A stretch of DNA of 64,000 bases from Parcubacteria group bacterium (GTDB taxonomy: Bacteria > Patescibacteriota > Patescibacteriia > UBA9934 > GWF2-40-263). The stretch is taken from assembly GCA_013204395.1 (NCBI GenBank), contig JABMNZ010000003.1, positions 13,570 through 77,569 on the forward strand. Direction: 5' to 3'. The translations under genes and the position numbers were made by a program. Position 1 is the first letter of the stretch; the number at the start of each line of letters is the position of its first letter. Of the stretch, positions 6,298-50,103 are shown piece after piece. A model generated the notes under the pieces. That model saw only the letters and a list, made by a program, of their open reading frames with translations, did not search any database and had not been told where the DNA came from.

Positions 6298-7782
6298 TCA
6301 CCTCACTTTCTTGGTCACATCAAACCCTAGGTATTTGCCCATCATAAGTCTTGTCTGGGCATCGATAGCTGGAAATGAACCGAAGACAATAAACGTAATA
6401 GGAAGCAGGGCCCATTGGAAAAGCATCACCACCCAGGTGTGCTTTTTTATTTTCTCTGGACGCCTCGGCAAAAGTGTAAGTGAAACAAGCGCTGAGACAA
6501 GAATACCGATCATGGCAAGTTGCATGAGGGACTGTAGAGTAAAAGGCGCCGCCTGAATCAAAGCCTCACCACGCCCTACTGCAACCCACAATGGCAACCA
6601 CCCAAGAACAAACATAATGATCGGGGCTGTGGCCCATGTCCACATGCCCTCAATGTGATTGAATACGTATTTTATCTTCTTTGCTCGTGGAATATTTGGA
6701 TGGCGCCTAAACCCATCGATGATGTATGGCAGGTGTTCAACTCCCCATGCCCATCGTCGCATTTGCTTGTAGAGCGCGCCGAGAGATTCCTTATAGGTCT
6801 TACCAGACACAGCGTCCATAGATACTGGTAAGAACATCGGGATCACCCTGTAATCACCTTCATAATGCAAAAAGGCTTGCATGAAAATTCGCGAATCCTC
6901 ACTCACAATATCTTTCTGCCAAAACCCAACATCCTTCAGCATCTTCCACGGCATCGAATGTGATGAGAATGTCCAAAGTCTGTCAGGACGCGTCAGCTCC
7001 CCAAATAACCAAAAGGTTGTTCCAAAGGCACCTATGCGCACTGGTGCAGATGATGTCCAAATATTATTTGAGAACAATGCGATCGGTTGAAAGGAGCTGC
7101 GAGTTGGATTCTCCACAGTAGAATAGAGATATGTCAGGTAAGAGAAATATTGCTTGTGTGCGATCGTGTCGACGTCAAAAGCAGAAACCACCAGATCTTC
7201 ATCATTAAGATCTGGAAATTCTTTTGTTATCATCTCTTCTGTACGGGACCCCATCCAATTCAAGTTAGACCCCTTTCCAGGTATCTCTCCTTCAATATCT
7301 TTTGGGTGCACCGTTGTAAATAAACGAAGAAACTCAATGCCAAATTCTTTTTGTGCTCTTATCACATGTCTACCAAAAGCCTGTTCATCACCCTGTTCTC
7401 CTCCCAAAACAACAATCATCTTTCTGCTTGGGAAAGGACTTTCACGCAGACTTCGAAGTGTTCCGCGGATGATGTCGTATCCCTCCTTGTACGTTGGCAG
7501 AAAAATTAAGTGATGAATCTTTTCTGCACCATCTAAGCCAGTGAGTTTAGCCTGCCAGTCTACGAGATCTGCTTTTTTATATCTTCGCCATGAAATTAAA
7601 ACAAAAATATTGAAATACAAAACTCGAAACAGCCACAAAAGATCGAAGACGATGATAAAAACTATCACCCATAGCGGCTTATAAAAAGAGAAAGATAATG
7701 CAAGTAGAAAAGTTCCCCAAACCGTTAGGCCGGGGAACATTTCCCAAAAACGCATTTTACCGTAAGTGTAAGGTTCCGACAT
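6298..7782 (-). CDS. Processive family-2 glycosyltransferase (cellulose/PNAG synthase-like), membrane-embedded
   Basis: 494 aa with multiple TM helices and a QxxRW motif (YKQMRRWAWG). The GT-A domain lies between TM segments. Confidence 0.7.
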   Translation of the reverse strand: MSEPYTYGKMRFWEMFPGLTVWGTFLLALSFSFYKPLWVIVFIIVFDLLWLFRVLYFNIFVLISWRRYKKADLVDWQAKLTGLDGAEKIHHLIFLPTYKEGYDIIRGTLRSLRESPFPSRKMIVVLGGEQGDEQAFGRHVIRAQKEFGIEFLRLFTTVHPKDIEGEIPGKGSNLNWMGSRTEEMITKEFPDLNDEDLVVSAFDVDTIAHKQYFSYLTYLYSTVENPTRSSFQPIALFSNNIWTSSAPVRIGAFGTTFWLFGELTRPDRLWTFSSHSMPWKMLKDVGFWQKDIVSEDSRIFMQAFLHYEGDYRVIPMFLPVSMDAVSGKTYKESLGALYKQMRRWAWGVEHLPYIIDGFRRHPNIPRAKKIKYVFNHIEGMWTWATAPIIMFVLGWLPLWVAVGRGEALIQAAPFTLQSLMQLAMIGILVSALVSLTLLPRRPEKIKKHTWVVMLFQWALLPITFIVFGSFPAIDAQTRLMMGKYLGFDVTKKVR

Positions 7783-12260: not shown

Positions 12261-12710
12261 TTATTTTAGGTTCACTGCGCCACCGGCGTCCTCGATATCC
12301 TTCTTCATCTGTTCTGCTTCAGCCTTTGGTACTGCTTCTTTTACCATTGTCGGAGCAGCGTCAACGATAGCCTTTGCCTCCTTAAGACCCTCACCAGTAA
12401 TGGTTCGAACAGCCTTGATTACAGCAATCTTGTTGTCTCCAGAACTTGCTAGCTCAACATCAAACTCAGTCTTCTCTTCTACTTCAGCACCGGCAGCAGC
12501 TGGTCCAGCAGCCATCATCATGGCTGGAGCTGAAGCACTGACACCAAACTTTTCTTCTAGCACCTTAACGAGCTCTGCAAGGTCCAATACTGACATCTGC
12601 TCAACTGACTCAACAAGAGCCTTGAACTTTGATGGAACCTCTGCGGACTTTTCCTCAGCAGCAGGAGCGTCTACGACAGTCTCCTCAGCTACAGTTGTTT
12701 CTTCTGACAT
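12261..12710 (-). CDS. rplL: 50S ribosomal protein L7/L12
   Basis: [31 protein letters not shown]...[24 protein letters not shown] is the canonical L7/L12 sequence. The ORF has a roughly 25-aa acidic N-terminal extension, so the true start may be internal. Confidence 0.9.
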
Positions 12711-12731
12711 AATTGTATCGATTAGAACGAA

Positions 12732-13253
12732 TTAACTCTTTGCCTCCTTAACGGCACTTAGTACGTAGACCAGAGCTCGCAAATTACCCGCAAGGACATT
12801 TACGAATCCGGAGATTGGAGCATTGATTGTACCCACCAACTTGGCAAGCAACTCATCTCTGCTAGGCAAGGTTGAGAGCTGCATAACAGCAGCTGAATCT
12901 ACAAACTTTCCTTCCAAAATACCTCCGACAAGACTAATCCCATCTCGGTCCTTAGCGTACTCAGCCATCATCTTCGCAGCAGAGACTTCATCATTGAATC
13001 CGAAGCTGGTTAGAATAGATCCTTGTAAGTCGTCTTTACCGACCTTGAATCCATTTTCTTCCAGAGCGCGGACCAAGAGAGTCTTCTTGGCAACAATCAG
13101 CTCAACTCCTTGTTCACGACCCTTTGCACGAAGATCATTAGCGTCATCCATTGTGTAACCTGACACAGATGTAAACACCGCAGATTTCATGCTAGAGAGC
13201 CTCTTGGAAAGATCAGCAATGATCTCTTCCTTCTCATTACGTGTTTTTGGCAT
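12732..13253 (-). CDS. rplJ: 50S ribosomal protein L10
   Basis: MPKTRNEKEEIIADLSKRL...LVGGILEGKFVDSAAVMQLSTLPSRDELLAKLVG is typical L10, lying upstream of rplL. The ORF was trimmed from 13475 to the Met at 13253. The 13254-13420 region is probably the rplJL leader. Confidence 0.9.
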   Translation of the reverse strand: MPKTRNEKEEIIADLSKRLSSMKSAVFTSVSGYTMDDANDLRAKGREQGVELIVAKKTLLVRALEENGFKVGKDDLQGSILTSFGFNDEVSAAKMMAEYAKDRDGISLVGGILEGKFVDSAAVMQLSTLPSRDELLAKLVGTINAPISGFVNVLAGNLRALVYVLSAVKEAKS

Positions 13254-13421
13254 AAAAAATATTCGACCTTTAATTAAAAACTGCAGACTCGCGCCGCAGT
13301 AGAAAAAAGGTCGAAACCTTTTACCTCGACGGGACTTATGCTCGGAAGCAACCCGTTGTCTACGGCAAATCTTTAGTTCGATGAGATAATAAAGGATCCG
13401 ACGGGGCATGTCAAGATAAGA

Positions 13422-13459
13422 AAAAGCAGCCTGCGTCAAGGCTGCGCGTTGAGAGCTAA
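13422..13459 (-). terminator. Stop codon plus rho-independent terminator (copy 1 of a perfect 38-bp direct repeat)
   Basis: On the minus strand it reads TAGctctcaacgcgcagcc-ttgacgca-ggctgcttttt. It is identical to 14056-14093 and terminates ORF 13456..14046. Confidence 0.7.
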
Positions 13460-14046
13460 CTCTCCTGGCGATCAACGTTGGACACCGTCACAATCTCACC
13501 AGACAGAAAGCATTGCGCGGCGGCCGTACCTCCTCTGAATGGGCTACGAACACCATTCCCGACCCAGTGACCAGCGAAGAAGCTTCCACTTGGACAGCAC
13601 TCCGACCCCATGCAACCGACGAAACCCTGCTGCACCTGCGTAACCATCCCCATGTCGAAGTCCTTAGGGAGCTGGCCCGGAATGTAGCAACTCACGGGGT
13701 CTCCCGGGAAGATGGCATCGCCGCAGTAGGAGCAGACAATCGCCTCCTTGAAGTACTCTGAATGAGCACACAAGATGCACTCCTTCCGCAAAAAACGATG
13801 AACCCAGAGTGGCAGCCACGCCTGCCACAACTTGAACGTGGGCCTACTCTCGTTCAACTTCCGATCGCCCAACATCAGATTCTCGAGCTGGTGCACCCTG
13901 TGGTTACATCCTGCCGTGAGAAACGGTTGCTCACCGTCCTTGGCCACCACCCTGAATGAAAGTGGTGGCGGGCGCCTCACTACCGGAATCAATGAAACCT
14001 GTTCTTCTGCCATGGGTACTCTCCTAGATAAACGAGTGCCAAACAA
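13456..14046 (-). CDS. GC-rich Cys-rich hypothetical protein (inserted cassette)
   Basis: 196 aa. It is the longest ORF spanning the whole insert, and its TAG stop is the first 3 nt of the duplicated terminator. It uses CTG/GCC/CGC-type codons, unlike its neighbours, and has many Cys (CILCAH, CSYCGD, CMGSECC). No homologue was recognised. Confidence 0.45.
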   Translation of the reverse strand: MFGTRLSRRVPMAEEQVSLIPVVRRPPPLSFRVVAKDGEQPFLTAGCNHRVHQLENLMLGDRKLNESRPTFKLWQAWLPLWVHRFLRKECILCAHSEYFKEAIVCSYCGDAIFPGDPVSCYIPGQLPKDFDMGMVTQVQQGFVGCMGSECCPSGSFFAGHWVGNGVRSPFRGGTAAAQCFLSGEIVTVSNVDRQES

Positions 14047-14055
14047 TCATGAAAT

Positions 14056-14093
14056 AAAAAGCAGCCTGCGTCAAGGCTGCGCGTTGAGAGCTA
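14056..14093 (-). terminator. Stop codon plus rho-independent terminator (copy 2 of the 38-bp direct repeat), terminating the 14091..14720 gene
   Basis: Same 38-mer as 13422-13459, followed on the minus strand by ttttatttc. Confidence 0.7.
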
Positions 14094-14720
14094 GATGTTG
14101 CTCAGACTTCCCCGGCCGGCTTCTTGCCTCTTGGTACGCACCTCGTAGTACGTCATGAAGGCGAGTGTCAGCGAGATGGAGATGATCCCGCGAATCACGT
14201 AGATGGTCGCGAGAAGATTCCCTTCGTGTAGCGATGGAACGAGTCCAACACCGTGAGCTGCCAGGACCAGCAGCCAAGCGGTGAACGATTCGGTGTTCCG
14301 CTTTTCTTTGATCATGGTGTGGTACATGGGGATGGTTCCCGCCTCTATGAGCACCTGTGCGAACAGGCTTGAATGCCAGAGATCACCAGAGATGACCGCG
14401 TAGGCCACCCCAAGCCCTGCCGCCAGCAGGTAGTACTTTTCCCAGGGACGAAATCGCAGTGTGCGATCTCCCCACACCAGGATCGAGATGATCACGATCA
14501 GCACCACGAGCAGGTCAACCACGTTGTTGACCCCACTGGTGATGTCCCAGTCTTCCTGAAGCAGGTAGCTCAGCAAGCTCCCGCCAACGCCGACCAGGAA
14601 CAGAATCCACATCGATAGCGTTGGAGTGATCTCCTTACGCCAGATCTGATAGACATACCGCAGGGCAAAGATGAGCATGATGCCCACCACAACCCAGGCA
14701 CAGATCTCTTTTAGATGCAT
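14091..14720 (-). CDS. Polytopic membrane protein, hypothetical
   Basis: 209 aa with about 6 predicted TM helices. No family recognised. Confidence 0.5.
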   Translation of the reverse strand: MHLKEICAWVVVGIMLIFALRYVYQIWRKEITPTLSMWILFLVGVGGSLLSYLLQEDWDITSGVNNVVDLLVVLIVIISILVWGDRTLRFRPWEKYYLLAAGLGVAYAVISGDLWHSSLFAQVLIEAGTIPMYHTMIKEKRNTESFTAWLLVLAAHGVGLVPSLHEGNLLATIYVIRGIISISLTLAFMTYYEVRTKRQEAGRGSLSNI

Positions 14721-14812
14721 GACACCTTTTCCTTTCGAGCTTGTCCTAGATTACCCAGGAACAACAAAACATGCCCTATAAAGGGCATGTTGTCAATGTT
14801 CTATCATCCTTC

Positions 14813-15520
14813 TTAAGCAATAACGGTTCCTATAAATCGCTCTCCTTTCAGCAAAGCATCAAGGTTCTCCATGTTCTTTCCGTTCAAGATGGCCACTTTG
14901 ATTCCACCGGTATGTGCCAGCCTCGATGCCACAGGATCAAACGGTGCGCTCATACCAGGATCCCACTCATTGCCAACCATCTTTCGGAAATCCTTCCAGG
15001 TTATGTCGCAGATTTGCTTTGCATTTTTATGCTTGTTTGGATCCTTGTCGTAAACGTAATCAATATTAGACAGATTGATGACCACCTTAGCCTTGAGCCT
15101 CTTGGCAATGCGTGTAGCCACGTAATCCGTTGACCAACCAGGCTTCCAACCCGCAGCCACCATGACGGGCTGCTTCCATCCTCGGATCGGTCTACTTGGA
15201 TCCTTGAGCATAACCGGATGGGCAACGTCACGCAGAACTGTCCTGACCAAGTGCCCATTCAATCGGGTTGCGTGAATCCCCAACCAGTCCAAGTCATCCC
15301 GAGTGAGCTTCCCCACCTTACGAGCGGCCTCCTGATAATGGCGAGCCGTTCCTCCACCACCGACCACAATCACAAACCTCCAATCTCGTTTAATGTGTTT
15401 GACGATCAACTTTTTTAAATCTTTAAGGAACTGATGATCAATTCCCCCATTGGGAACAACTAATGATCCCCCCACGGAAACGACAAGTGTCGATGGTGTC
15501 AGTGAATTGGTATGCGTCAT
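14813..15520 (-). CDS. pyrH: Uridylate (UMP) kinase, amino-acid-kinase fold
   Basis: LVVSVGGSLV...FVIVVGGGGTARHYQ...KVVINLSNIDYVYDKDP...GGIKVAILNG fits archaeal/short-type UMP kinases. The start was trimmed to MTHTNS. Confidence 0.65.
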   Translation of the reverse strand: MTHTNSLTPSTLVVSVGGSLVVPNGGIDHQFLKDLKKLIVKHIKRDWRFVIVVGGGGTARHYQEAARKVGKLTRDDLDWLGIHATRLNGHLVRTVLRDVAHPVMLKDPSRPIRGWKQPVMVAAGWKPGWSTDYVATRIAKRLKAKVVINLSNIDYVYDKDPNKHKNAKQICDITWKDFRKMVGNEWDPGMSAPFDPVASRLAHTGGIKVAILNGKNMENLDALLKGERFIGTVIA

Positions 15521-15549
15521 AAAAAGAGCGCCCATGAGGCGCTAATTGA

Positions 15550-20640: not shown

Positions 20641-20722
20641 CAGGTTTGTACAGATTTTTGCGACGTTGTTTCATTGACATGACCTCTCTCCTATGGCTTA
20701 CTTCCCTCGGAATGGAGAAAAG

Positions 20723-22162
20723 ATGAAACCCAACCCAAGAGACCGAGCCTTCCTCATGGCCCTGGATTCGATGAATGATCCCCACCTCCCGTGGGGACTG
20801 CGATTCTCCATTTTGCAGGACGATATTCCGGAAGGATACTTCGTCCGAAATGGTCACAGCGAATTCATGCGCCATTTCTGGGCAACGCTCTCACTCGCAC
20901 TCCCTGGCTCTGCACTGGAAATGCGTCTATTTGAGAAGCTCTCGCTGCCAAACATGGGTGCAGTTCCAACCTGGATCTCCGTGTGCGGACCCACGAGCTG
21001 GCCGGTGTTCTGGGTACACGTCATCCTGCGCAGCGATGCGCGGGGAGGAATTCACACCCTGGCCGTGCAGCGTCTACGCACCGTGACCGGAGGTACCGCC
21101 GAGCTTTGCACCGCCGCAACAGAACTCGCCAGACAAGACGGCAACGAGCAGCTCGTCGCACGACTGCGCACTGAGGCCATAGAAGTCGCAACAGACTGGT
21201 GGGAATGGAAGTTGATCATCGGCATGGAAACGGACGTGAGCGCGGATGCCCGCGTCAAAGCCCTCCAGCAACTTCGAGAGCTTCCAGTGGAGCGTGACGG
21301 GCTCGAACCATCCCTCAGCACAGCCGATCCAGAAGTCAGGCTGATCGTGATCGATCGTCTGCTCGAGACCTTCCCCGAGCGACCGGACCTCTGGCGGAGG
21401 CGATTCCTGACGGTTAGTCCGCCTGATGAACGCTACCAATGCTGGATCAAGTTCCTGTCGGTGACCCCCCCAGCCCATGAGCTGACAACCGTTCTGTTCC
21501 ACGTCTGGAACAACAAGCCAGAGCGCGCACGGTGCCTGGAGGCCATCGAACACCTCGATGCACAATGCCCTGCGTGGATCTATGCGCACTCTGCCAGCTA
21601 CGGAGCGCCCCACGATGACCCCAAGCTTCACTCCATCAGAGAGGTGATCTGGCAACGGATCTTCGCCACGGCACAGTCCTGCCATGACTGGTGCCAGTTG
21701 ACCAGGTTCATGAGAAGGCGCCACGAACAAGGCCACCCTCTCGTGAACGAAGCTTTCGAGAAGGCCCTAGATCTGGCCGAAAACTTCGAAGAGCTCTCGG
21801 ACGTGTACAGCCTCTGCCTGCATGAAGTGGCAGATGGCCATCATCGGCGAACCGAACACGACCCAGCGCGCGCACAGGTCATCCAAGGACTCCTTGTTCG
21901 GATGGAAGAGATTGGAGCCTTTTGGGACTACTGGAACGGACATCATCTACTGATGTCCGACAGGCTCTCCAGGATCGTTTGCTTGGCCAGCACCCCGTCA
22001 CAGATGGGGTTGGTCTACAACAGGCACTTCCAACTGCCTTACCAACGTGATGACAATCGAGAGCTCTACGACGAGCTTCTGCGACGCATGCACGCTGCTG
22101 GGCCCTCGTTGGTCACCAGCTTCCTTCCCAAACCAGCAACCGAGGCTCAACCCCGAACCTAA
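20723..22162 (+). CDS. GC-rich hypothetical protein
   Basis: The start was trimmed to MKPNPRDRAF with a ggagaaaag RBS. It is about 480 aa, helical, and rich in Arg/Leu/Trp with Leu-rich repeat-like segments. Codon usage is distinct from its neighbours. No family recognised. Confidence 0.5.
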   Translation: MKPNPRDRAFLMALDSMNDPHLPWGLRFSILQDDIPEGYFVRNGHSEFMRHFWATLSLALPGSALEMRLFEKLSLPNMGAVPTWISVCGPTSWPVFWVHVILRSDARGGIHTLAVQRLRTVTGGTAELCTAATELARQDGNEQLVARLRTEAIEVATDWWEWKLIIGMETDVSADARVKALQQLRELPVERDGLEPSLSTADPEVRLIVIDRLLETFPERPDLWRRRFLTVSPPDERYQCWIKFLSVTPPAHELTTVLFHVWNNKPERARCLEAIEHLDAQCPAWIYAHSASYGAPHDDPKLHSIREVIWQRIFATAQSCHDWCQLTRFMRRRHEQGHPLVNEAFEKALDLAENFEELSDVYSLCLHEVADGHHRRTEHDPARAQVIQGLLVRMEEIGAFWDYWNGHHLLMSDRLSRIVCLASTPSQMGLVYNRHFQLPYQRDDNRELYDELLRRMHAAGPSLVTSFLPKPATEAQPRT

Positions 22163-22212: not shown

Positions 22213-22280
22213 TACAAAAAAATCACGGGCTCGATGCCCATGATTTTTCCTTCACCACCCCCACCTCCCTGGGTCCACCC

Positions 22281-22360
22281 CGGCGACTCAGACAGCGGAA
22301 CAACTTTGAGTCGGCAATATGCGACCGATCTCACAAGTTCGTTCCGATGGCTGAGGTCGC
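22281..22360. repeat. Palindromic MITE/REP-like element, copy A
   Basis: ggcgactcagacagcGGAACAACTTTGAGTCGGCAATATGCGACCGATCTCACAAGTTCGTTCCgatggctgaggtcgcc. The core is 85-95% identical to copies at 28086, 29268, 31476 and 37928, and it folds as a long imperfect hairpin. Confidence 0.8.
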
Positions 22361-22384
22361 CCAATCATAGAGAGAAAGTCAGTC

Positions 22385-26410: not shown

Positions 26411-27007
26411 TTGCATTCCTCCTGCGACATGGAAAGGCCATTGAACGTGACGAATTCCGAAGCTGCTCCCCCATTCCTGACTAGAACCGAAGCCTTCGAC
26501 CGCTCGGAGTACGAACCCTTCTACCTGGTGATTGGCATCATCTGCTTTACCATGGGCATCGCAGCCTTGCTGCAAGTTGGACTATTCACAGGTACAACCA
26601 ACCTGATCAAGTGGGCAACAGGTATCAGTGCACTTGTGAGCGCGGTTCTCCTGCTGAGCAAGGCTGTCTGGTCCTGGTACACCGGCAAACACCTGGCTTA
26701 CAAGATCTTCGTCTTACTCTGCCAAGAGAAAGATCTGCTTGGACAGGGCAACATCCTCCAAGCGTCACTCGATCAAATCGTGATGCTTCGAAAGGTACTG
26801 AGCAAGCACCAAACGAACATGACATACGAACAGAACATGCACTTGCTCGGCGAAGTCACTCTCTTCGAGGTTGAGTGCCAAGTCATCAGGGCAAAGCTCC
26901 ACGCAGAGCAAGCCGCCCGGCTACAACAGGCATTCAAGGCAAGTAGACACGACCCACCTTGGGTGAACTTCACTGACACGGCCAAACAGGCATCTGTGAG
27001 CGTCTAG
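26411..27007 (+). CDS. GC-rich small membrane protein, paralogue 1 of 3
   Basis: 2-3 TM helices followed by a helical C-terminus LLGQGNILQASLDQIVMLRKVL...AKLHAEQAARLQQAFKA. It is similar to the 27108 ORF (LLKRGDALLMQQRSLVAQERVL...AQLEAQMARH...LLRQAFKAAG). The start may be the MERPLN at 26429. Confidence 0.5.
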   Translation: MHSSCDMERPLNVTNSEAAPPFLTRTEAFDRSEYEPFYLVIGIICFTMGIAALLQVGLFTGTTNLIKWATGISALVSAVLLLSKAVWSWYTGKHLAYKIFVLLCQEKDLLGQGNILQASLDQIVMLRKVLSKHQTNMTYEQNMHLLGEVTLFEVECQVIRAKLHAEQAARLQQAFKASRHDPPWVNFTDTAKQASVSV

Positions 27008-27013
27008 CTCACC

Positions 27014-27042
27014 ACGACCCCGACACGGAGGGTCTTTTTTCT
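27014..27042 (+). terminator. Rho-independent terminator
   Basis: gaccc-cgacacgga-gggtc followed by ttttttc. Confidence 0.7.
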
Positions 27043-27107
27043 TTGACAAATTAAGCCCATGAGAGTGAAGTGCCCGCGACGCACCTAAACGCGGCAGAAA
27101 GGCCACT

Positions 27108-27647
27108 ATGTCTGAGAGTCTCCCCCTGCAGTCCTTCACCACCTTCACCTCCGAAACAGAGATGAAGGCCCGTTACAACTGGGACTTCTTGATGTTTGCC
27201 GCGCTCATGCCACTGCTCTCAGGTCTGTTCTACGCGACAGCCAGAGACACTGGAAGCTTCAACTCGGAGATCCTCCTCATCTCCATTCCGTTGATGGCCA
27301 TCCCGTTCTTCTTGGCGGCAGCGCTGTGGGTTTTCTTGCGAGGAGACCATCATCAGTACAGCACGTTCGTCGAACTGTGCCAGCCTGACAATCTCCTGAA
27401 AAGAGGTGATGCACTGCTCATGCAGCAGAGAAGTCTCGTGGCACAAGAGAGGGTCTTGACCCTGCTGGAAGAAGGCTACGGCCCCAGTCAAGAGTTGACT
27501 GAAGCACGTGCTCAACTGGAAGCACAGATGGCCCGCCACGCAACTCGCGTCACGGAACTCGCTCGTCAGCAGGACTATCTCCTGCGACAAGCGTTCAAAG
27601 CAGCTGGCAAGAACCCACGGTTCCTGAGAGAGCCAACGCCAACGTGA
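27108..27647 (+). CDS. GC-rich small membrane protein, paralogue 2
   Basis: 179 aa with TM helices in the N-terminal half. The C-terminal helical domain is homologous to the 26411 ORF. It is preceded by a TTGACA box at 27043 and ggcagaaagg 8 nt before the ATG. Confidence 0.5.
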   Translation: MSESLPLQSFTTFTSETEMKARYNWDFLMFAALMPLLSGLFYATARDTGSFNSEILLISIPLMAIPFFLAAALWVFLRGDHHQYSTFVELCQPDNLLKRGDALLMQQRSLVAQERVLTLLEEGYGPSQELTEARAQLEAQMARHATRVTELARQQDYLLRQAFKAAGKNPRFLREPTPT

Positions 27648-27704
27648 ACACCTGGTCACAAGCCTGACCAACACTGACCCCGAACAGACACAGAAAGGCA
27701 CCCC

Positions 27705-27971
27705 ATGTCCGAACAGGTAATAGACGCAGCCACACTCCGCACCGCCTTCATGAAGTCCCTCAGGAACTCCCTGGTGGTAGCGCTGATCATCGCTGCGGGA
27801 ATGGTCTACCTGAAACTCACCTACTCGCCCACAGAGAACCAGGAGGCCTATGGAATCACCATGGGCTCCGGAGGCTTGTTCCTGACCATCGTCACTCTTC
27901 ACGCGCTCGGAAACTGCTTCTTGTACTGGACTCACCCAGTACGAAAGGGATCCATCCCGTCTTCTGAGTGA
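27705..27971 (+). CDS. GC-rich small 2-TM membrane protein, paralogue 3 (short)
   Basis: 88 aa with two TM helices. It has the same acagaaagg...ATG upstream context and terminator type as its neighbours. Confidence 0.4.
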   Translation: MSEQVIDAATLRTAFMKSLRNSLVVALIIAAGMVYLKLTYSPTENQEAYGITMGSGGLFLTIVTLHALGNCFLYWTHPVRKGSIPSSE

Positions 27972-27996
27972 GACGAACTCCTCGCTCAACACACCT

Positions 27997-28022
27997 GACC
28001 CCCATACGGAGGGTCTTTTTTC
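27997..28022 (+). terminator. Rho-independent terminator
   Basis: gaccccc-atacgga-gggtc followed by tttttttc, nearly the same hairpin as at 27016. Confidence 0.7.
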
Positions 28023-28085
28023 TTATATAGAACATCTACAACCCCAACCCACCAAACAAAACGTCGACCCACCACGGGCCACCCA

Positions 28086-28146
28086 AGAGGAATGAGCGTC
28101 GACACAACTTTGAGTCGGCAACACGCGACCGATCTCACAAGTTCGT
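28086..28146. repeat. Palindromic MITE/REP-like element, copy B
   Basis: gcgtcgacACAACTTTGAGTCGGCAACACGCGACCGATCTCACAAGTTCGTGCCgacgatc. Confidence 0.75.
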
Positions 28147-28204
28147 GCCGACGATCAGTTCCTCCAAAGCCTTCACATCGACTTATCCCCACCACACCCC
28201 TTGC

Positions 28205-28255: not shown

Positions 28256-28870
28256 ATGTCGAACATAACCAAAAAACAAGCAGAGGTGCTCGCGATCATC
28301 CGCACGCACCTTGAAGACGAGGGCTATGCCCCATCCTACCGAGAGATAGCAGACGCCCTAGGCCTCTCCTCCCCAGCCACTGTCCACGCGCATGTGCAAG
28401 CGCTGGCAGAAAAAGGTCTCATCGCCACCGGTGATGATGGGAGAGCGCGCTCAATCGAGCTAGTCGATGAAGAAGTTAAACAGCCATCAGTAATGCTACC
28501 CCTCATGGGTATCATCACAGCAGGAGAACCTATCGAGGCCGTGGAAGATAATGAAGCCATGGCTGTGCCTTCAGACTTTGTTCTAGACAGCGCCAACTCA
28601 TTTGTCCTTAGAGTAAAAGGACGCTCCATGATAGAAGATGGAATACTAGATGGCGACTACGTTGTCATCGAGAGAAATCCATCACCTCGTGACGGAGAGG
28701 TAGTGGTAGCCTTACTAGATAATGCCTTTGCCACGCTGAAACGATTTTACAGAGAACGCAATCGTATCAGACTTCAACCTGCAAACAGCTCCATGGAACC
28801 AATCTTCGTCCAAGACTGCATTATCCAAGGAGTTGTCCGAGCTGTCATAAGAAAATTTCAACCTGTGTAG
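28256..28870 (+). CDS. lexA: LexA repressor
   Basis: N-terminal wHTH (YREIADALGLSSPATVHAHVQALAEKGLI), an Ala-Gly cleavage site (ITAGEP), and the S24 Ser/Lys dyad region (VKGRSMIEDGI...VVALLDNAFATLKRF). Confidence 0.9.
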   Translation: MSNITKKQAEVLAIIRTHLEDEGYAPSYREIADALGLSSPATVHAHVQALAEKGLIATGDDGRARSIELVDEEVKQPSVMLPLMGIITAGEPIEAVEDNEAMAVPSDFVLDSANSFVLRVKGRSMIEDGILDGDYVVIERNPSPRDGEVVVALLDNAFATLKRFYRERNRIRLQPANSSMEPIFVQDCIIQGVVRAVIRKFQPV

Positions 28871-29190: not shown

Positions 29191-29267
29191 GATCTCGACC
29201 ATTATTCTTAACCCCAAGCATCTTCTTCACCCCTATCCCCCTCCACCACCAACATGGGTGTAACACC

Positions 29268-29347
29268 TCGACTCAGACATTGGGACAACTTTGAGTCGGC
29301 AATATGCGCCCGATCTCACAAGTTCGTACCAATGGCTGCAGTCGCCG
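29268..29347. repeat. Palindromic MITE/REP-like element, copy C
   Basis: cgactcagacattGGGACAACTTTGAGTCGGCAATATGCGCCCGATCTCACAAGTTCGTACCaatggctgcagtcgccgac. It has the same outer arms as copy A. Confidence 0.8.
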
Positions 29348-29863: not shown

Positions 29864-30376
29864 CTAGTCGGCTTGTACCTTAAGTTCAAGGTACCTCACC
29901 AGGTCGAGTTCGTAGTGCCGATCAGATCCCTCAACGAGCTTGAAGCCGAGATTCTCGTACAGCGCGCGAGCTGCTTCGTGCCAGGGCTCAGAAACGAGCC
30001 GCACCACCTTGATGAGTGGGGACACTCCTACAGCCTGGTCGAGCAAATTCTCCATGAGTGCACGGCCAAGTCCTCGACCATCACCACGGAAGTCTTCGTC
30101 CACCAACACGTACTCAACATGACCAACACCCTTGCGCCAGTCGTAGGTGATGCAGAGCATGGCCACACCGACCACACGCCCTGTTTCCTGCTGACGGATC
30201 ACAGAGATGCGCGTGCGTGCGCGTTCCATAAGCCTACGCTGGTGCAAGACATCTTGGTACGGCAGAAGTCCTGATTGAAGTAGTTCATCGCCGCGCTCGT
30301 TTAGAAACGTAATGCAGTCACGGTAATCGTCCAGCCGAGCCAAATCGATCCTGAACAAGGTGCTGTTAAAGGGCAT
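29864..30376 (-). CDS. GNAT family N-acetyltransferase
   Basis: VAMLCITYDW...VLVDEDFRGDGRGLGRALMENLLDQA is the acetyl-CoA-binding Q/RxxGxG/A motif. Confidence 0.75.
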   Translation of the reverse strand: MPFNSTLFRIDLARLDDYRDCITFLNERGDELLQSGLLPYQDVLHQRRLMERARTRISVIRQQETGRVVGVAMLCITYDWRKGVGHVEYVLVDEDFRGDGRGLGRALMENLLDQAVGVSPLIKVVRLVSEPWHEAARALYENLGFKLVEGSDRHYELDLVRYLELKVQAD

Positions 30377-30427: not shown

Positions 30428-31777
30428 ATGGAGCGCATCATTCTCCACATTGATTTTAATTCCTACTTCGCCTCTGTTGAACAGCAGGCGAATCCCTTTT
30501 TACGTGGCAAACCCATCGGCATCACAGGAAAAAGCCAGGAGCGCTCTGTTGTCGCCACAGCCTCAATTGAAGCCAAAGCCCTTGGTGTTAAAACAGCCAT
30601 GAGTACATGGGAGGCAAAGAAGGTATGCCCAACAATCATCCTCTGGCCTGGTGATCCAGAAAAGTATTCAGACATCACATCTAGATTTAATCGAATCTTA
30701 AGTGAGTTCACACCAAACGTCTCTCAGTTCAGTGTGGACGAGAGTTTTTTAGATATTACAGACGAGGCTGAAGATTATTTCGGCGCAACCTGCCTTGCTC
30801 AAGCTTTGCGCGAGCGACTCAGAGAGGAGTTTGGAGATCACATCACCGCTTCCATAGGCATCGCCCCAAACAAGCTCATGGCCAAACTCGCCTGCGAGTC
30901 AGTCAAACCTAATGGACTAACGGTCGTTCGCAAAGACGACTTAATCGATTTCATCGACACGCGTGAACTTGATGACCTATGTGGAATCGGACATCGTATA
31001 AAGCATCGCCTGAATGCTCTTGGCGTTGAAACTTTTAAACAACTCCGTGAATTCCCCATCAACGATCTCGTCGATGAATTCAAATCTTACGGCACTTGGC
31101 TACATGCAGCAGCTCATGGACACGACTCATCCGCGGTCGTCTCATCCACGCAAAAAGGCATTCGCACCATGCACTCGACTGGCGTGAAGTCTTATGGACA
31201 CTCATACACCCTCCCTCAAAACACTCACGACCTCCTTGTCATAAAACGATACCTACTAGGCCTGGCAGACAAAGTTGCATGGCGCATGCGCCGCGATAAA
31301 ACCCTAGCCCGTCGCGTAAGCGTCTTTGTTCGTTTTGGCGACTTCACTGGACACGGCGAGCAACGCACATTCAACGAACCAACAGCCAACGGACTAAAAC
31401 TATTCCAAATAGCCTGGCGCATCCTCTCCCCCCATCTCTCCCCTCACTCTCACCCCCAACCCACAGGCCGAGCACGCGACACAGACATTGGTACAACTTT
31501 GAGTCGGCCTACCAGTGACCGATCTCAAAGTTCGTACCAAGGGCTGGGGTCGCCCCCCAATGACCTAGTCCGCCTAGTAGGCCTATCTACATCCCTATTA
31601 TCCTCAGGTCCTGAACAACCACCTCTATTTAAAAAAGACCGAAAGATGATTTCCGTCTTCTCTTCACTCGACAAGCTTCAACATCGATATGGTCCCGGTG
31701 TCTGGCAACGCGCTTCAACCATGCCAATCGAATTCAAATCCCGATCTAGTGGATTCAATTATGACCACGAGGTTTAA
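30428..31777 (+). CDS. dinB: DNA polymerase IV (Y-family), with an in-frame palindromic-element insertion in the little-finger region
   Basis: ILHIDFNSYFASVEQ, SIDE-like VDESFLDIT, and the C-terminal LVRLVGLSTSLL...PPLF little-finger motifs. Residues around SPHLSPHSHPQPTGRARDTDIGTTLSRPTSDRSQSSYQGLGSP are encoded by repeat copy D, so the protein is roughly 80-100 aa longer than typical DinB. The start was trimmed to MERIIL. Confidence 0.8.
   Translation: MERIILHIDFNSYFASVEQQANPFLRGKPIGITGKSQERSVVATASIEAKALGVKTAMSTWEAKKVCPTIILWPGDPEKYSDITSRFNRILSEFTPNVSQFSVDESFLDITDEAEDYFGATCLAQALRERLREEFGDHITASIGIAPNKLMAKLACESVKPNGLTVVRKDDLIDFIDTRELDDLCGIGHRIKHRLNALGVETFKQLREFPINDLVDEFKSYGTWLHAAAHGHDSSAVVSSTQKGIRTMHSTGVKSYGHSYTLPQNTHDLLVIKRYLLGLADKVAWRMRRDKTLARRVSVFVRFGDFTGHGEQRTFNEPTANGLKLFQIAWRILSPHLSPHSHPQPTGRARDTDIGTTLSRPTSDRSQSSYQGLGSPPNDLVRLVGLSTSLLSSGPEQPPLFKKDRKMISVFSSLDKLQHRYGPGVWQRASTMPIEFKSRSSGFNYDHEV
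31476..31555. repeat. Palindromic MITE/REP-like element, copy D (inside the dinB coding sequence, frame preserved)
   Basis: gcgacacagacattGGTACAACTTTGAGTCGGCCTACCAGTGACCGATCTCAAAGTTCGTACCaagggctggggtcgcc. Confidence 0.8.
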
Positions 31778-36374: not shown

Positions 36375-37760
36375 CTACAGAGGAGCACAAGCCTTGCGCA
36401 ACTCTGCGTCCACACTCTTGAGATCGGGCCCACCGTCTGTGAGCTGGCGCATGAGGTGAACGTTTGCCAGGTGTACGTGCGGGAACACACTGGCACGAAC
36501 CTGGCGACTGAACCCGTAGTCTAGCAACTGGCCCGTCATCGGATCTGGACGAGTAAGTCGTCGGTGTATGGACTTGAGCTCGTCGTCCCAAGCTCTACAG
36601 CAAGAGTCTGAGACGGTTTGGCTTCGGTCCATGAGAATCGCCGTCTGCAACAAGAGCTCCTCAAGCTGCCAGTGGAGTTCCCGAAGCTTCATGCTGTGAT
36701 AGACACGAATGAGCACGTCCCGCGCGCGCAACATCACGGCAGCGGCGGCATCAGGAATTTCGCTTCGTGCCACTTTGGCAGCCTCAGCCATGATGGCGGC
36801 AACCTCACGAAGGTCACGCACGGTGTGCTTGATGGAACGATCAAACGGCTTGGTGACGACGGCTTCGAGCTTTGTCGCCACCGCTCCCAGACGTCCCGCT
36901 TCCTTGATGACCGTCCCGGTAGAACGTTCTTCAGAGGAACCTGCTCGCCTTGCATCAAACGGCAGAAGTCGATCGTCACCAAACAGTTTCCTGGACTGCA
37001 GGCGATGCAACTGGGAGTCAGCGATCTGGCGACACATCAACCGATGACGATCGATGTAGACCTCCAGGACCGCCTCACGAAAACTCATTCTTCGTGAAAT
37101 GCCGCGCACCCCCTGAATCCGCTTGGCGAGCTGAGTTTGCCCCGCGAAGATGATCAGTGGGATACGACCAGGATTGAACCTCCCGATCGAGTCTTTCAGC
37201 TCTCCGGCCTGAAGCACGCGGCGCAGAGCCTCTACCTTACGTTCGTCAATGACACGACCATGCCTGTCCAGCAGAGCGGCCGCAACCAGGACGTACTCCT
37301 GTTTTTCACCCTCACCAACCAGGTGAAGGGTCCATGATGTCTTGACCATCCAGTTGAAGGTGTCGTCCCAGGTACGAAGATCGGGAATCTCGATGCTCTT
37401 GCCGCGCACCTCAGCGTGGGCCATCCCTCGTCGAGCCGTGTAGACGGTCTTGTACGAGATGAAACACTGTTGCCCATATTCCAGAGGATCCTCGCCATTG
37501 AGGCGCTCTGAGACACTCAGGTTTCTGGACAAGATACGACCTGGGGCAAGCTCCGGAACATCCGCAAGAACGTCGGTGCCGCGAGCCGGTACCATGTAAA
37601 GACAGTGTGGAACCAGCTCAATGAGAGCAAAGTTCAAGACATTGAGGGGAGACTGTTTGCCCTCACCCTTTCTCCTAGTACGCAGAAGCCTGAAGTCACG
37701 AGTAATGACAACGGGCTCCATCGGATCCGGCATTTCAAACCGGCCTGTGGAATGAGCCAC
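36375..37760 (-). CDS. GC-rich hypothetical protein
   Basis: 461 aa, Arg/Leu-rich and predicted cytoplasmic. Codon usage is distinct from flanking genes. No family recognised. Its upstream region contains repeat copy E. Confidence 0.45.
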   Translation of the reverse strand: MAHSTGRFEMPDPMEPVVITRDFRLLRTRRKGEGKQSPLNVLNFALIELVPHCLYMVPARGTDVLADVPELAPGRILSRNLSVSERLNGEDPLEYGQQCFISYKTVYTARRGMAHAEVRGKSIEIPDLRTWDDTFNWMVKTSWTLHLVGEGEKQEYVLVAAALLDRHGRVIDERKVEALRRVLQAGELKDSIGRFNPGRIPLIIFAGQTQLAKRIQGVRGISRRMSFREAVLEVYIDRHRLMCRQIADSQLHRLQSRKLFGDDRLLPFDARRAGSSEERSTGTVIKEAGRLGAVATKLEAVVTKPFDRSIKHTVRDLREVAAIMAEAAKVARSEIPDAAAAVMLRARDVLIRVYHSMKLRELHWQLEELLLQTAILMDRSQTVSDSCCRAWDDELKSIHRRLTRPDPMTGQLLDYGFSRQVRASVFPHVHLANVHLMRQLTDGGPDLKSVDAELRKACAPL

Positions 37761-37927
37761 GATTCAGACCTCCTTTTCCAGTGCTTTTTCTCAATGAATC
37801 AGCCCTGCAAGATAATCAAATCCAACCACCTTGTCAACACTAATTTCCCCAAAAACAAAACAAAGGTCTCGACGACCTTTGTTTTGTTAACCCCCCCTCT
37901 CCACACCACCAGTCGTGGGTAAACCAC

Positions 37928-38006
37928 CGCGAACGAGCGTTGGGACAACTTTGAGTCGGCAATATGCGACCGATCTCACAAGTTTGTACCAGTGATCGGT
38001 TCGCCG
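37928..38006. repeat. Palindromic MITE/REP-like element, copy E
   Basis: cgcgaacgagcgttGGGACAACTTTGAGTCGGCAATATGCGACCGATCTCACAAGTTTGTACCagtgatcggttcgccg. Confidence 0.8.
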
Positions 38007-42526: not shown

Positions 42527-42970
42527 GTGGTCAGTACAGTGAGTGACCTCTCAGTTTTTCTCCTCAACCGACTCAAGGAAGATGACCGTCCGCAGACCAT
42601 CACCATGGAAGCAACTGCGGGCGAGAACGATGGTGTTCGTATCAGACTCCCGAATGACGACGAGCTCATCGAAGTGAAAGCCAGAACTGCAACACTGGAC
42701 GGAAGATCCGGAAGGCTCCCTTGGTACATCCTGGCCGACACCTATCTCAGAATGACTGGTGCACGTGTCGCCATGGAGCTCGCCAGAGCACGATCTGTCC
42801 AGCCCCCAATGCCATCAACCACCAGATCTTGGATCTTGCAAGACGGAACCACCACGGACTACAAGACCCCCAGCACCCACGAATGGTTCGCTGCTGACCA
42901 GAAGGTCGATCCGCCACCCAAAGGTGCTGTTCTGCGAATCACCTTCTCGTATCCAGGATACGGCAAGTAA
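42527..42970 (+). CDS. GC-rich small hypothetical protein
   Basis: 147 aa. It is preceded by gtttcattgaca (42466) and ggcagaaagg, and followed by a terminator at about 42990-43020. Codon usage is distinct from its neighbours. Confidence 0.4.
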   Translation: MVSTVSDLSVFLLNRLKEDDRPQTITMEATAGENDGVRIRLPNDDELIEVKARTATLDGRSGRLPWYILADTYLRMTGARVAMELARARSVQPPMPSTTRSWILQDGTTTDYKTPSTHEWFAADQKVDPPPKGAVLRITFSYPGYGK

Positions 42971-49680: not shown

Positions 49681-50103
49681 ATGTGTCGAGGGGTACTGAA
49701 GATGGATCCGGAACTGCTGATCGTGAAGCTCTGGCGTGAGTTCAAAGAAACCACGCTGGAGATGCTGAAGTTGCTGCTGCTGAAAGAACTCGTTGAGCGG
49801 GATGACGACTTCGTCGAAGTCACTGACCGCGCGAGTGCCATCCGTTGTGCCAAGGCCTACGACAGGGCCACAGCCAAGGTCGAAGCGATCCGCGCACGTC
49901 GTGGCTCCAAGACCCTGGTCATCCAGATCTTCGGCATCGCTGAGGAAATCGTCCACAGCGTTCTCTGCCACGAAGAGTTCTGCACCTGTCGTCCAGACGG
50001 CAAGCTGACATCCAGGAACAGCGAGGTGCGCGTCCGATTCGAACTCCCCTCACCTGGGCTCATCGCCGACTCCAGCTGCTTCAGCAGCTTCGTCATGGCC
50101 TAA
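49681..50103 (+). CDS. GC-rich small hypothetical protein
   Basis: About 130-140 aa, Cys-containing at the C-terminus (CHEEFCTCRPDGK). Its start may be MDPELL at 49702. It is followed by tandem terminators at 50160-50250. Confidence 0.4.
   Translation: MCRGVLKMDPELLIVKLWREFKETTLEMLKLLLLKELVERDDDFVEVTDRASAIRCAKAYDRATAKVEAIRARRGSKTLVIQIFGIAEEIVHSVLCHEEFCTCRPDGKLTSRNSEVRVRFELPSPGLIADSSCFSSFVMA

What the first reader, a model, noticed from the sequence alone, without database searches (positions are those of the whole stretch)
13422..14093. A 634-bp GC-rich cassette is flanked by a perfect 38-bp direct duplication of stop codon plus terminator, inserted between the rplJ leader and a membrane-protein gene
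The 38-mer aaaaagcagcctgcgtcaaggctgcgcgttgagagcta occurs at 13422-13459 and 14056-14093. On the coding (minus) strand each copy begins exactly at a TAG stop, for ORF 14091..14720 and for the inserted ORF 13456..14046, and continues as a terminator hairpin plus T-run. The intervening ORF is much more GC-rich, with Cys-rich high-GC codon usage. This looks like a gene cassette that inserted or recombined using the terminator module as the homology or attachment site, carrying a copy of the terminator with it.
Basis: seen in the sequence. Interest (0 to 1): 0.7.

Follow-up and report, generated by a model that had tools for sequence, protein, structure and literature searches.

The report
Terminator-bounded gene cassette slot before rplJ
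In this uncultivated Uhrbacteria (Patescibacteria) genome, the gap between the UMP-kinase gene and the ribosomal L10 operon holds swappable single-gene cassettes, each ending in the same short terminator, and that shared terminator most likely supplies the homology by which related strains exchange the cassettes.

Summary
An exact 38-mer (TAG stop, 10-nt spacer, 7-bp hairpin, T-run) lies at 13421-13458 and 14056-14093. It ends both the 209-aa membrane gene (M) and the 185-aa Cys-rich gene (C), just upstream of the promoter and Rfam L10 leader of rplJ.

A sister lineage, about 90-93% identical in DNA, has pyrH-M-X (41/41 nt identical) followed by an unrelated 102-aa gene (D). D ends in a terminator that shares both edges of X. 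Homology to the window breaks at the T-run of one X copy and resumes at the T-run of the other.

Among close relatives the same hairpin follows four unrelated genes: M, C, D and PP2C. A more distant relative (L003) has C between a degenerate X and an intact X. Many Uhrbacteria have an empty pyrH-rplJ gap.

High GC is not specific to C. M and every other gene in the gap are GC3-rich. M itself is three times less diverged at synonymous sites than its flanking genes, so it too was recently exchanged.

Most likely mechanism: homologous recombination, with X as a short arm and the conserved L10 leader and rplJ as the long arm. No recombinase was found, and X is not attC-like. This is a new variant of a known kind, of moderate interest.

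The parts
14813..15535 (-). pyrH (archaeal-type UMP kinase), the conserved left flank of the hotspot
   Evidence: Pfam AA_kinase 1.3e-29. NCBIfam TIGR02076 pyrH_arch 187.5 bits against a cutoff of 158. Syntenic in 80 Uhrbacteria loci.
14768..14791 (-). pyrH terminator hairpin (AACATGCCCTTTATAGGGCATGTT, then a T-rich tail). It lies inside the low-divergence M-cassette tract.
   Evidence: Terminator scan. Conserved in sister L100 with paired changes in the hairpin, CCCTTTATAGGG against CCCCTTATGGGG.
14091..14720 (-). Cassette gene M: 209-aa membrane protein with seven predicted helices and unknown function
14056..14093 (-). X copy A: the TAG stop of M, spacer CTCTCAACGC, hairpin GCAGCCT/TGACGC/AGGCTGC and TTTTT. 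It is the left boundary of the C slot.
   Evidence: Identical over 41/41 nt after M in L100-L105.
14014..14055 (-). Cassette-specific 5' region of C, with the RBS AGGAG. Homology to the sister lineage ends at about 14051.
   Evidence: Alignable with the region upstream of C in L003: score 37 against a maximum of 34 in 2000 shuffles.
13456..14013 (-). Cassette gene C: 185-aa Cys/His-rich protein, probably with two zinc sites, of an uncharacterised family
13421..13458 (-). X copy B: the TAG stop of C plus the same spacer, hairpin and T-run. It is the right boundary of the slot, 6 nt upstream of the -35 box of the L10 promoter.
   Evidence: Homologous to the terminator after C in L003 and to X' after D in L100. 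Homology with L100 resumes at window position 13424.
13386..13414 (-). rplJ operon promoter (TTGACA, 17-nt spacer, TATTAT)
   Evidence: 11/12 match to consensus. Conserved in L003, L100, L106 and L111.
13266..13383 (-). Ribosomal protein L10 leader. It is highly conserved and is proposed as the long right-hand homology arm.
   Evidence: Rfam RF00557 49.1 bits. 87-91% nt identity to relatives whose other intergenic DNA cannot be aligned.
12261..13253 (-). rplJ (13253..12732) and rplL (12710..12261), the conserved right flank
   Evidence: Pfam Ribosomal_L10, Ribosomal_L12 and Ribosomal_L12_N.

Best explanation
The pyrH-rplJ intergenic gap of this Uhrbacteria subclade is a hotspot that holds one to three single-gene cassettes drawn from a shared, GC-rich accessory pool: M, C, D, PP2C, E and a PaaX-like gene. 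Each cassette is a short 5' region, one ORF and an intrinsic terminator of one sequence family (X). In the window the array is pyrH-[M-X]-[C-X]-promoter-L10 leader-rplJ.

X does two jobs. It is a working terminator that shields the autoregulated rplJ leader from upstream transcription. It is also the only sequence shared between otherwise unrelated cassettes, so it acts as a portable homology patch of 38-41 bp.

Proposed route, inferred and not shown. DNA from a related strain carrying ...X-C-X-promoter-leader-rplJ is taken up. RecA-type homologous recombination integrates it, with one crossover in X and the other in X, the leader or rplJ. A circular [C+X] molecule integrating by a single crossover in X would give the same product. 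Either way the result is M-X-C-X, with both junctions inside X, so each ORF appears to end in an identical stop-plus-terminator.

Shown: the repeat, its terminator fold, the hotspot, the slot exchange (C against D) bounded by X, and X following four unrelated genes. Inferred: the recombination pathway and the direction of the last event.
For: 1. Exact 38-mer, present twice and nowhere else in 64 kb. It has a terminator fold.
2. In sister lineage L100-L105, 90-93% identical in DNA, M-TAG-X is identical over 41/41 nt. An unrelated ORF D follows. Its terminator X' shares 12 nt at the 5' edge and 18 nt at the 3' edge with X, and the same downstream CTTATCTT. The alignment breaks fall at window positions ~14051 and ~13424, the T-runs of the two X copies.
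3. The same hairpin with the same loop, CAGCCTTGACGCAGG(G)CTG, follows PP2C in L111 and D in L106-L110.
4. In another subclade C (L112) and M (L011, L014) share a different, double-hairpin terminator version.
5. L003 has a degenerate X, then C, then an intact X, then the promoter.
6. Gap content and gene order vary. Many species have an empty gap of 170-310 nt with no X.
7. In 1.1 Mb of related loci, X-family hairpins lie almost only in this gap.
8. The cassettes look foreign and recently shared. GC3 is 0.62-0.75 in hosts of 0.45-0.56. M third-codon-position divergence to the sister is 6.2% against 19.9% in six flanking genes, Fisher p=2e-7. The low-divergence tract runs from just after the pyrH stop to the end of X.
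9. The L10 leader is 87-91% identical across relatives, so it is a usable long homology arm.
10. No recombinase or transposase was found among the window ORFs scanned or in the gene tables.
11. Natural competence has been shown in another Patescibacteria group, the Saccharibacteria (PMC10633639 and PMC10187176, found).
Against: - No empty-slot genome (pyrH-M-X-promoter) at strain level was found, and no circular or excised form. No recombination event is therefore directly observed.
- A 38-41 bp arm is short for RecA-mediated exchange.
- L111 has a cassette (E) with a non-X terminator on its 3' side. In L006, L112, L011 and L021 some cassettes are not preceded by X. X is therefore not an obligatory boundary.
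- Because X-C-X also occurs in L003, the pair of copies may be old. Their perfect identity in the window could then come from gene conversion rather than from a recent insertion.
- Only 64 kb of the genome was available, so X copies or a recombinase elsewhere cannot be excluded.
Confidence: 0.6

Rival explanations
1. Old arrangement with concerted evolution. X-C-X, and perhaps M-X-C-X, was already present in the common ancestor of the window, L100 and L003. The two X copies stay identical through short-tract gene conversion or selection. The sister lineage later replaced C with D.
For: L003, the closest relative outside the >=90% group, has a degenerate X upstream of C at the same distance from the ATG and an intact X downstream. 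C homologues occupy this gap in several lineages.
Against: - The window's C has GC3 0.68 in a genome whose core genes sit near 0.42. It is only 53% identical to L003's C, while core proteins are about 80% identical. That fits a different allele from the pool better than vertical descent.
- In L100 the two terminators are not homogenised.
- In L003 the left copy has decayed, so conversion is not generally active.
Confidence: 0.2
2. Site-specific recombination. X is a minimal attachment site, comparable to an integron attC, a Xer/dif-like site or an IS200/IS605-type hairpin, recognised by a dedicated recombinase encoded elsewhere. Cassettes move as circles or single strands.
For: - All cassettes are co-oriented and each ends in the same hairpin.
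- Boundaries fall inside the hairpin module.
- The loop sequence TTGACGC is conserved after four unrelated genes.
- Gene order is shuffled between genomes.
Against: - X is 38-41 nt and has no R''/R' inverted core pair. GTTGAGA fails the GTTRRRY consensus, and no complementary box follows the hairpin (sequence reading).
- No integrase, transposase or Xer-like gene was found among the ORFs scanned or in the flanking gene tables.
- There are only two X copies in 64 kb.
- There is no match in viral contigs.
Confidence: 0.1
3. M, not C, is the inserted unit. The ancestral state pyrH-C-X-rplJ, as in L003, received M together with a copy of C's terminator.
For: - L003 and L005-L010 have pyrH-C without M.
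- The spacer CTCTCAACGC resembles the spacer after C homologues more than the CGYC spacer after distant M homologues.
- An 8-mer, ATCTAGGA, lies upstream of both M and C.
- The M tract is unusually similar between lineages.
Against: - The sister lineage keeps M-X intact and varies what follows it.
- M-X would have to be inserted twice, or before the split.
- The 8-mer is only marginally above chance, about 0.06 expected.
- This does not conflict with M also being a cassette, and the best explanation already includes that.
Confidence: 0.07
4. Local duplication of the terminator by replication slippage or template switching at the hairpin, or an assembly artefact. No cassette exchange is involved.
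For: Hairpins and T-runs are known sites of template switching (general knowledge). A 38-nt repeat can confuse short-k assemblers.
Against: - Two independent contigs and a Logan unitig agree. The unitig crosses the pyrH-M junction unbroken and stops at k-1 inside X.
- The sister lineage shows replacement of the enclosed gene, not just a duplicated terminator.
- X follows four different genes in different genomes.
Confidence: 0.03

Closest known systems
Minimal mobile elements (MMEs) of Neisseria (Saunders & Snyder 2002; used in PMC1797815)
   Same: A fixed chromosomal site between two conserved genes carries alternative whole-gene cassettes in different strains. The cassettes have no mobility genes and are thought to be exchanged by DNA uptake and homologous recombination. 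[quoted passage not shown]
   Different: In MMEs the homology lies in the flanking genes. Here an internal repeated module, the terminator X, also bounds individual cassettes within the array, so single cassettes can be added or swapped. The host is an uncultivated Patescibacterium, and competence has not been shown for Uhrbacteria.
Integron gene cassettes with attC sites (including chromosomal super-integron repeats)
   Same: Co-oriented single-ORF cassettes, each ending in an imperfect-palindrome repeat directly after the stop codon. Order and content vary between relatives. Cassette composition differs from that of the host.
   Different: X is 38-41 nt, whereas attC sites are about 55-140 nt (from memory). 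X has no R''/L''-L'/R' core pairs and no GTTRRRY box. No intI or attI was found. The array holds only 1-3 cassettes. X has the full anatomy of an intrinsic terminator, including the U-run.
Homology-facilitated illegitimate recombination, or short-arm homologous insertion during natural transformation (Acinetobacter, Streptococcus; general knowledge)
   Same: Foreign DNA is inserted using one long homologous anchor, here the leader and rplJ, plus a very short second homology.
   Different: Here the short arm is a defined, reused 38-nt module rather than a random microhomology, so the products are precise and repeatable.
Intergenic repeat elements that act as terminators (REP/BIME, Correia elements, paired uptake sequences in Neisseria and Haemophilus; general knowledge)
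   Same: A short palindromic repeat lies directly downstream of genes, can terminate transcription and can promote recombination.
   Different: Those elements are dispersed in hundreds of copies genome-wide. X is confined to one locus: 2 copies in 64 kb, and almost only in the pyrH-rplJ gap across 1.1 Mb of relatives.

Membership tests
Rho-independent (intrinsic) terminator | G+C-rich stem-loop immediately followed by a U-run, placed downstream of a stop codon on the coding strand | tested here: met
   7-bp stem with 5 G-C pairs, 6-nt loop, then TTTTT(C/A)TT. It starts 13 nt after TAG. Energy is -12.7 kcal/mol, and 8-9 of 200 shuffles fold as well. Termination activity itself was not tested.
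Integron cassette / attC | attC site of roughly 55-140 nt with paired inverse core (RYYYAAC) and core (GTTRRRY) sites | tested here: not met
   X is 38-41 nt. TCTCAAC and GTTGAGA fail the consensus at one position. No complementary core follows the hairpin, where only a T-run is found (direct reading).
Integron cassette / attC | Adjacent intI tyrosine recombinase, attI site and Pc promoter | tested here: not met
   No integrase domain was found in the ORFs scanned or in the gene tables within 10 kb. Only 64 kb could be examined.
Minimal mobile element (flanking-homology cassette site) | Alternative gene cassettes at one syntenic site between conserved flanking genes in related genomes | tested here: met
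   pyrH and rplJ flank M+C, M+D, C, C+PP2C, PP2C, PP2C+E, PaaX+PP2C+M, or nothing.
Minimal mobile element (flanking-homology cassette site) | No mobility genes within the element | tested here: met
   M, C, D and E have no Pfam hit, and none is a recombinase.
Minimal mobile element (flanking-homology cassette site) | Exchange by transformation and homologous recombination | not testable with these tools
   Indirect support only. The M tract is 3-fold less diverged than its flanks. Competence is known in Saccharibacteria (PMC10633639) but not in Uhrbacteria.
Dispersed palindromic repeat (REP/BIME/uptake-sequence type) | Many copies spread over the genome | tested here: not met
   2 copies in 64 kb. 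Hits in relatives are confined to the gap. The rest of the genome was not available.
Transposon or IS insertion | Transposase, terminal inverted repeats, and a short target-site duplication | tested here: not met
   There is no transposase. The flanking repeat is a 38-nt direct repeat that includes a functional terminator, and the repeat finder list shows no inverted-repeat pair at the ends of the 13421-14093 segment.

The most novel reading that the evidence does not exclude
X-type hairpins are the recombination sites of a minimal, integrase-independent or trans-acting cassette system in Patescibacteria. In this system a terminator hairpin doubles as the attachment site. It lets ultra-small genomes swap single genes at a few fixed slots. 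The second duplicated terminator at 27016/27997 and the 107-nt repeats beside other GC-rich islets would then be further examples.
Probability: 0.1. Interest if true: 0.8.

Novelty: new variant of a known kind. Interest (0 to 1): 0.45.

Why it matters
Patescibacteria have tiny genomes and few recognisable mobile elements, yet their strains differ in gene content. This locus gives a concrete, sequence-level picture of how that can happen. A fixed slot next to an essential, highly conserved operon is filled from a shared pool of GC-rich single-gene cassettes, and the boundaries of those cassettes are a reused terminator. If the terminator really serves as the homology patch, then transcription signals themselves can make accessory genes modular. 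The same signature, identical stop-plus-terminator modules after unrelated neighbouring genes, could be searched for genome-wide to map exchange hotspots in uncultivated bacteria. The result also warns against treating GC content alone as the marker of 'the' inserted gene.

Tried and rejected
1. My first reading was that M is the insert and C ancestral. It rested on relatives with pyrH-C but no M and on the C-type spacer. I dropped it after finding the sister lineage with M-X conserved and the next gene swapped.
2. The related-loci scan of metagenome contigs with C found no relative, not even the source contig.
3. The 22-mer hairpin scan of metagenome contigs gave a single hit, inside an rplP coding region of an unrelated contig (L099). 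I take this as a chance match.
4. The viral-contig scan for X found nothing.
7. The afdb50 fold library was unavailable.
8. attC, Xer and IS readings of X: the defining features are not met (see membership test).
9. A promoter-like match has its -35 box (TTGACG) in the hairpin loop of copy A, 9/12 to consensus. The spacing and -10 box are not conserved in other X contexts, so I did not pursue it.
10. The shared 8-mer ATCTAGGA upstream of M and C was considered as a possible target-site duplication. It is close to chance expectation and is not supported by the sister lineage.

Full report
**1. The observation**

No further copy appears even with three mismatches allowed, and none appears in 100 shuffles. 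With one mismatch the repeat reaches 41 nt, and the copies start 635 nt apart.

Read on the minus strand, each copy is TAG, then CTCTCAACGC, then GCAGCCT-TGACGC-AGGCTGC, then TTTTT. The TAG is the stop codon of ORF 14720..14091 (M, 209 aa) in copy A and of ORF 14046/14013..13456 (C) in copy B. Both copies are picked up by the terminator scan and fold as a 7-bp stem-loop plus U-run at -12.7 kcal/mol.

Directly downstream of copy B lie three features:
- a near-consensus promoter, TTGACA-17-TATTAT, at 13414-13386;
- the Rfam L10 leader at 13383-13266, 49.1 bits;
- rplJ and rplL.

Upstream of M is an archaeal-type pyrH with its own, different terminator. The real start of C is the ATG at 14013. 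It has an AGGAG 7 nt upstream, gives 185 aa, and matches the N-termini of all homologues.

**2. The arrangement is not an artefact**

The window matches a 140-kb JGI contig (L001) with one mismatch in 20,630 nt, so two separately assembled contigs carry M-X-C-X. A Logan unitig from another run (SRR28106091) is 100% identical over 8,264 nt. It crosses the pyrH-M junction without a break and stops exactly 30 nt (k-1 for k=31) into X. That is what a genuine repeat of at least 31 nt produces. It also argues against a mixture of pyrH-M and pyrH-C strains.

**3. Composition**

| Feature | GC | GC3 |
|---|---|---|
| M | 0.556 | 0.73 |
| C | 0.565 | 0.68 |
| Neighbouring core genes | - | 0.39-0.52 |
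| Mean of 59 ORFs in the window | - | 0.46 (sd 0.10) |

Several other one- or two-gene GC3-rich islets are scattered through the window. Most encode proteins with no Pfam match.

**4. Organism and locus**

pyrH relatives in the GTDB species representatives are mostly labelled Candidatus Uhrbacteria. The order xseA-xseB-holin-like-pyrH-[gap]-rplJ-rplL is conserved. In many species pyrH is followed within 170-310 nt by the L10 promoter and leader, with no gene and no X-like hairpin in between.

In the subclade around the window the gap is filled, and the content and order differ between genomes:

| Genome | Content of the pyrH-rplJ gap |
|---|---|
| Window | M, C |
| L003 | C |
| L005-L010 | C, PP2C |
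| L020, L025, L026, L035 | PP2C |
| L021 | M, PP2C (contig ends after PP2C) |
| L011 | PaaX-like, PP2C, M |
| L014 | 321-aa gene, M (pyrH not on the contig) |
| L100-L105 | M, D |
| L111 | PP2C, E |
| JGI 3300072015 | PP2C, a 100-aa gene |

The gap is therefore a hotspot, and both M and C are accessory genes of that hotspot.

**5. The decisive comparison**

Cluster look-ups gave relatives with pyrH, rplJ and M at least 90% identical to the window's. The L100-L105 contigs come from three NCBI assemblies and three Logan runs, and they are 89-93% identical to the window in DNA across the locus.

In these contigs M is followed by TAG plus X, identical over 41 of 41 nt. Then the sequences stop aligning. 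The sister carries an unrelated 102-aa ORF, D (no similarity to C; no Pfam hit). D ends in ...TGATCAACGCGCAGC-AGCCCTAGCGGCC-GCTGCTTTTTCTTATCTT. This terminator (X') shares 12 nt at its 5' edge and 18 nt at its 3' edge with X, and differs in the middle.

**6. X is a shared module, not the property of one gene**

Other relatives in the >=90% pyrH cluster show the same hairpin with the same loop:
- L111: after PP2C, as TAG CACCCAACGCA CAGCCTTGACGCAGGGCTG TTTTTTCTTT.
- L106-L110: after a D remnant, immediately upstream of the L10 promoter.

L003 has a diverged but clearly homologous terminator after C. It also has a degenerate X, AGCCTTGACGGAGG..TTCATG, upstream of C at the same distance from the ATG. 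The local alignment score is 37, against a maximum of 34 in 2,000 shuffles.

In a more distant subclade the terminator is a double hairpin. Essentially the same second hairpin follows C in L112 and M in L011 and L014. Unrelated genes sharing one terminator version is therefore a recurring pattern. Across 1.1 Mb of related loci, hairpins of this family lie almost only in the pyrH-rplJ gap.

**7. The cassettes are recently shared**

Between the window and L100, M differs at 14 of 630 nt, while pyrH differs at 79 of 723. At third codon positions M differs at 6.2%, against 19.9% in six flanking genes (Fisher p=2e-7). The low-divergence tract begins about 15 nt after the pyrH stop and ends with X, at window 14056-14797.

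All hotspot genes are GC3-rich relative to their hosts. The window's C is 53% identical to L003's C, although core proteins are about 80% identical. It has GC3 0.68 in a genome near 0.42. These points indicate a cassette pool exchanged among related lineages rather than strict vertical descent.

**8. Mechanism**

The structure M-TAG[X]-(C 5' region)-C-TAG[X]-CTTATC-promoter has both novel junctions inside X. The outer junctions, M-TAG-X and X-CTTATCTT, are the ones conserved in the sister lineage. Two routes give this product:
- a single crossover between a resident X and a circular [C+X] molecule;
- a double crossover with donor DNA ...X-C-X-promoter-leader, with one exchange in X and one in X, the leader or rplJ.

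The L10 leader is 87-91% identical even to relatives whose other intergenic DNA cannot be aligned, so it offers a long homology arm. No integrase or transposase appears among the ORFs scanned or in the gene tables around the locus.

X lacks attC-type core sites (direct reading) and does not occur in viral contigs. Natural competence is documented for Saccharibacteria (PMC10633639, found) but not for Uhrbacteria.

I therefore favour homologous recombination with X as a short portable arm, at about 0.6. The rivals are:
- an old X-C-X pair kept identical by gene conversion, about 0.2;
- a dedicated site-specific system, about 0.1;
- M as the insert, about 0.07;
- slippage or artefact, about 0.03.

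The recombination step is inferred. No empty slot at strain level and no excised form was seen.

**9. The genes**

**10. Comparison with known systems and verdict**

In logic the locus is closest to the minimal mobile elements of Neisseria: alternative small cassettes at a syntenic site between conserved genes, without mobility genes (PMC1797815). It adds a repeated terminator that bounds individual cassettes.

It resembles integron arrays in layout but fails the attC and intI tests. It is not a dispersed REP-type repeat. I rate it a new variant of a known kind.

It needs correcting on what the GC signal means, on the status of M, and on how recent and unique the event is.

Noticed in passing
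window 27016-27043 and 27997-28024 (+ strand), islet 26411-28024: A second duplicated terminator lies in another GC3-rich islet: GACCCCGACACGGAGGGTC-TTTTTTCTT and GACCCCCATACGGAGGGTC-TTTTTTCTT, 26/28 identical and 981 nt apart. The first follows gene a (192 aa). The second follows genes b (179 aa, which looks like a paralogue of a) and c (88 aa). None has a Pfam hit. This may be the same terminator-bounded cassette pattern, or a tandem duplication.
   Followed up: partly
window 22255-22361, 28059-28165, 29240-29346, 31448-31554, 37900-38006 (+ strand): A repeat family of about 107 nt has five copies. Each has a C-rich 5' part and a nearly invariant core of about 45 nt, ACAACTTTGAGTCGG-N10-CCGATCTCACAAGTTCGT, which can form a hairpin (GAGTCGG/CCGATCTC). 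Four of the five copies lie next to GC3-rich islets. There is no Rfam match, and no copy in the loci fetched from other genomes.
   Followed up: partly
window 20693-22162(+), 26429-27971(+), 29864-30376(-), 36375-37733(-), 42605-42970(+), 49681-50103(+): GC3 across the window is bimodal. Housekeeping genes sit at about 0.36-0.52, and they are interrupted by one- to three-gene islets at 0.59-0.75. Most islet genes are ORFans; one is a GNAT acetyltransferase. The 489-aa ORF at 20693-22162 sits between the DUF4015 and RNase_H_2 genes. Those two genes are adjacent in L006, and in L003 they are separated by other GC-rich genes, which suggests a second hotspot.
   Followed up: partly
window 14056-14797 vs L100 5923-6665: The M cassette, from the pyrH terminator through M to X, is 2.6% diverged from the sister lineage, while the adjacent pyrH is 10.9% diverged. 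The change is sharp and falls about 15 nt after the pyrH stop. This points to a recent transfer of the M cassette between lineages.
   Followed up: yes
L106-L110, about 5791-6320 in L106: The first ~100 codons of PP2C, identical to the intact PP2C of L111, are fused out of frame to the 3' part of a D homologue. The fusion ends ..AISWLRRTYL* and is followed by X. It is a deletion derivative of a PP2C-D array, and gene callers disagree on how to annotate it.
   Followed up: partly
L100 about 7210-7250 and 7333-7412: The sister lineage carries two small insertions that the window lacks. One is a ~40-nt perfect palindrome, TAGCTAACCAGGCCGGAAGCTAAGCTTCCGGCCTGGTTAG, within ~75 nt of extra sequence between X' and the L10 promoter. 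The other is an ~80-nt insertion inside the 3' part of the L10 leader, just before the TAATTAAAGGTCGAA ribosome-binding region.
   Followed up: no
window 20774-21381 (-): ARAGORN reports a 'tmRNA*' inside the GC-rich 489-aa ORF. No Rfam tmRNA hit supports it, so it is probably a false positive. No tRNA gene occurs anywhere in the 64 kb.
   Followed up: partly
L025 6759-6790; L014 983-1013: A related hairpin, CAGCCGTCTCC(T/C)C(C)GAGCGGCTG-TTTTCTTTT, follows pyrH itself in L025 and the 321-aa gene in L014. This hints that the X family may derive from the resident terminator that precedes the hotspot.
   Followed up: partly
window 28256-28870(+) and 30428-31777(+): A LexA gene and a Y-family (impB/mucB/samB) polymerase gene lie among the islets and the 107-nt repeats. 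One repeat copy is just upstream of lexA, and one overlaps the 3' end of the polymerase gene.
   Followed up: no
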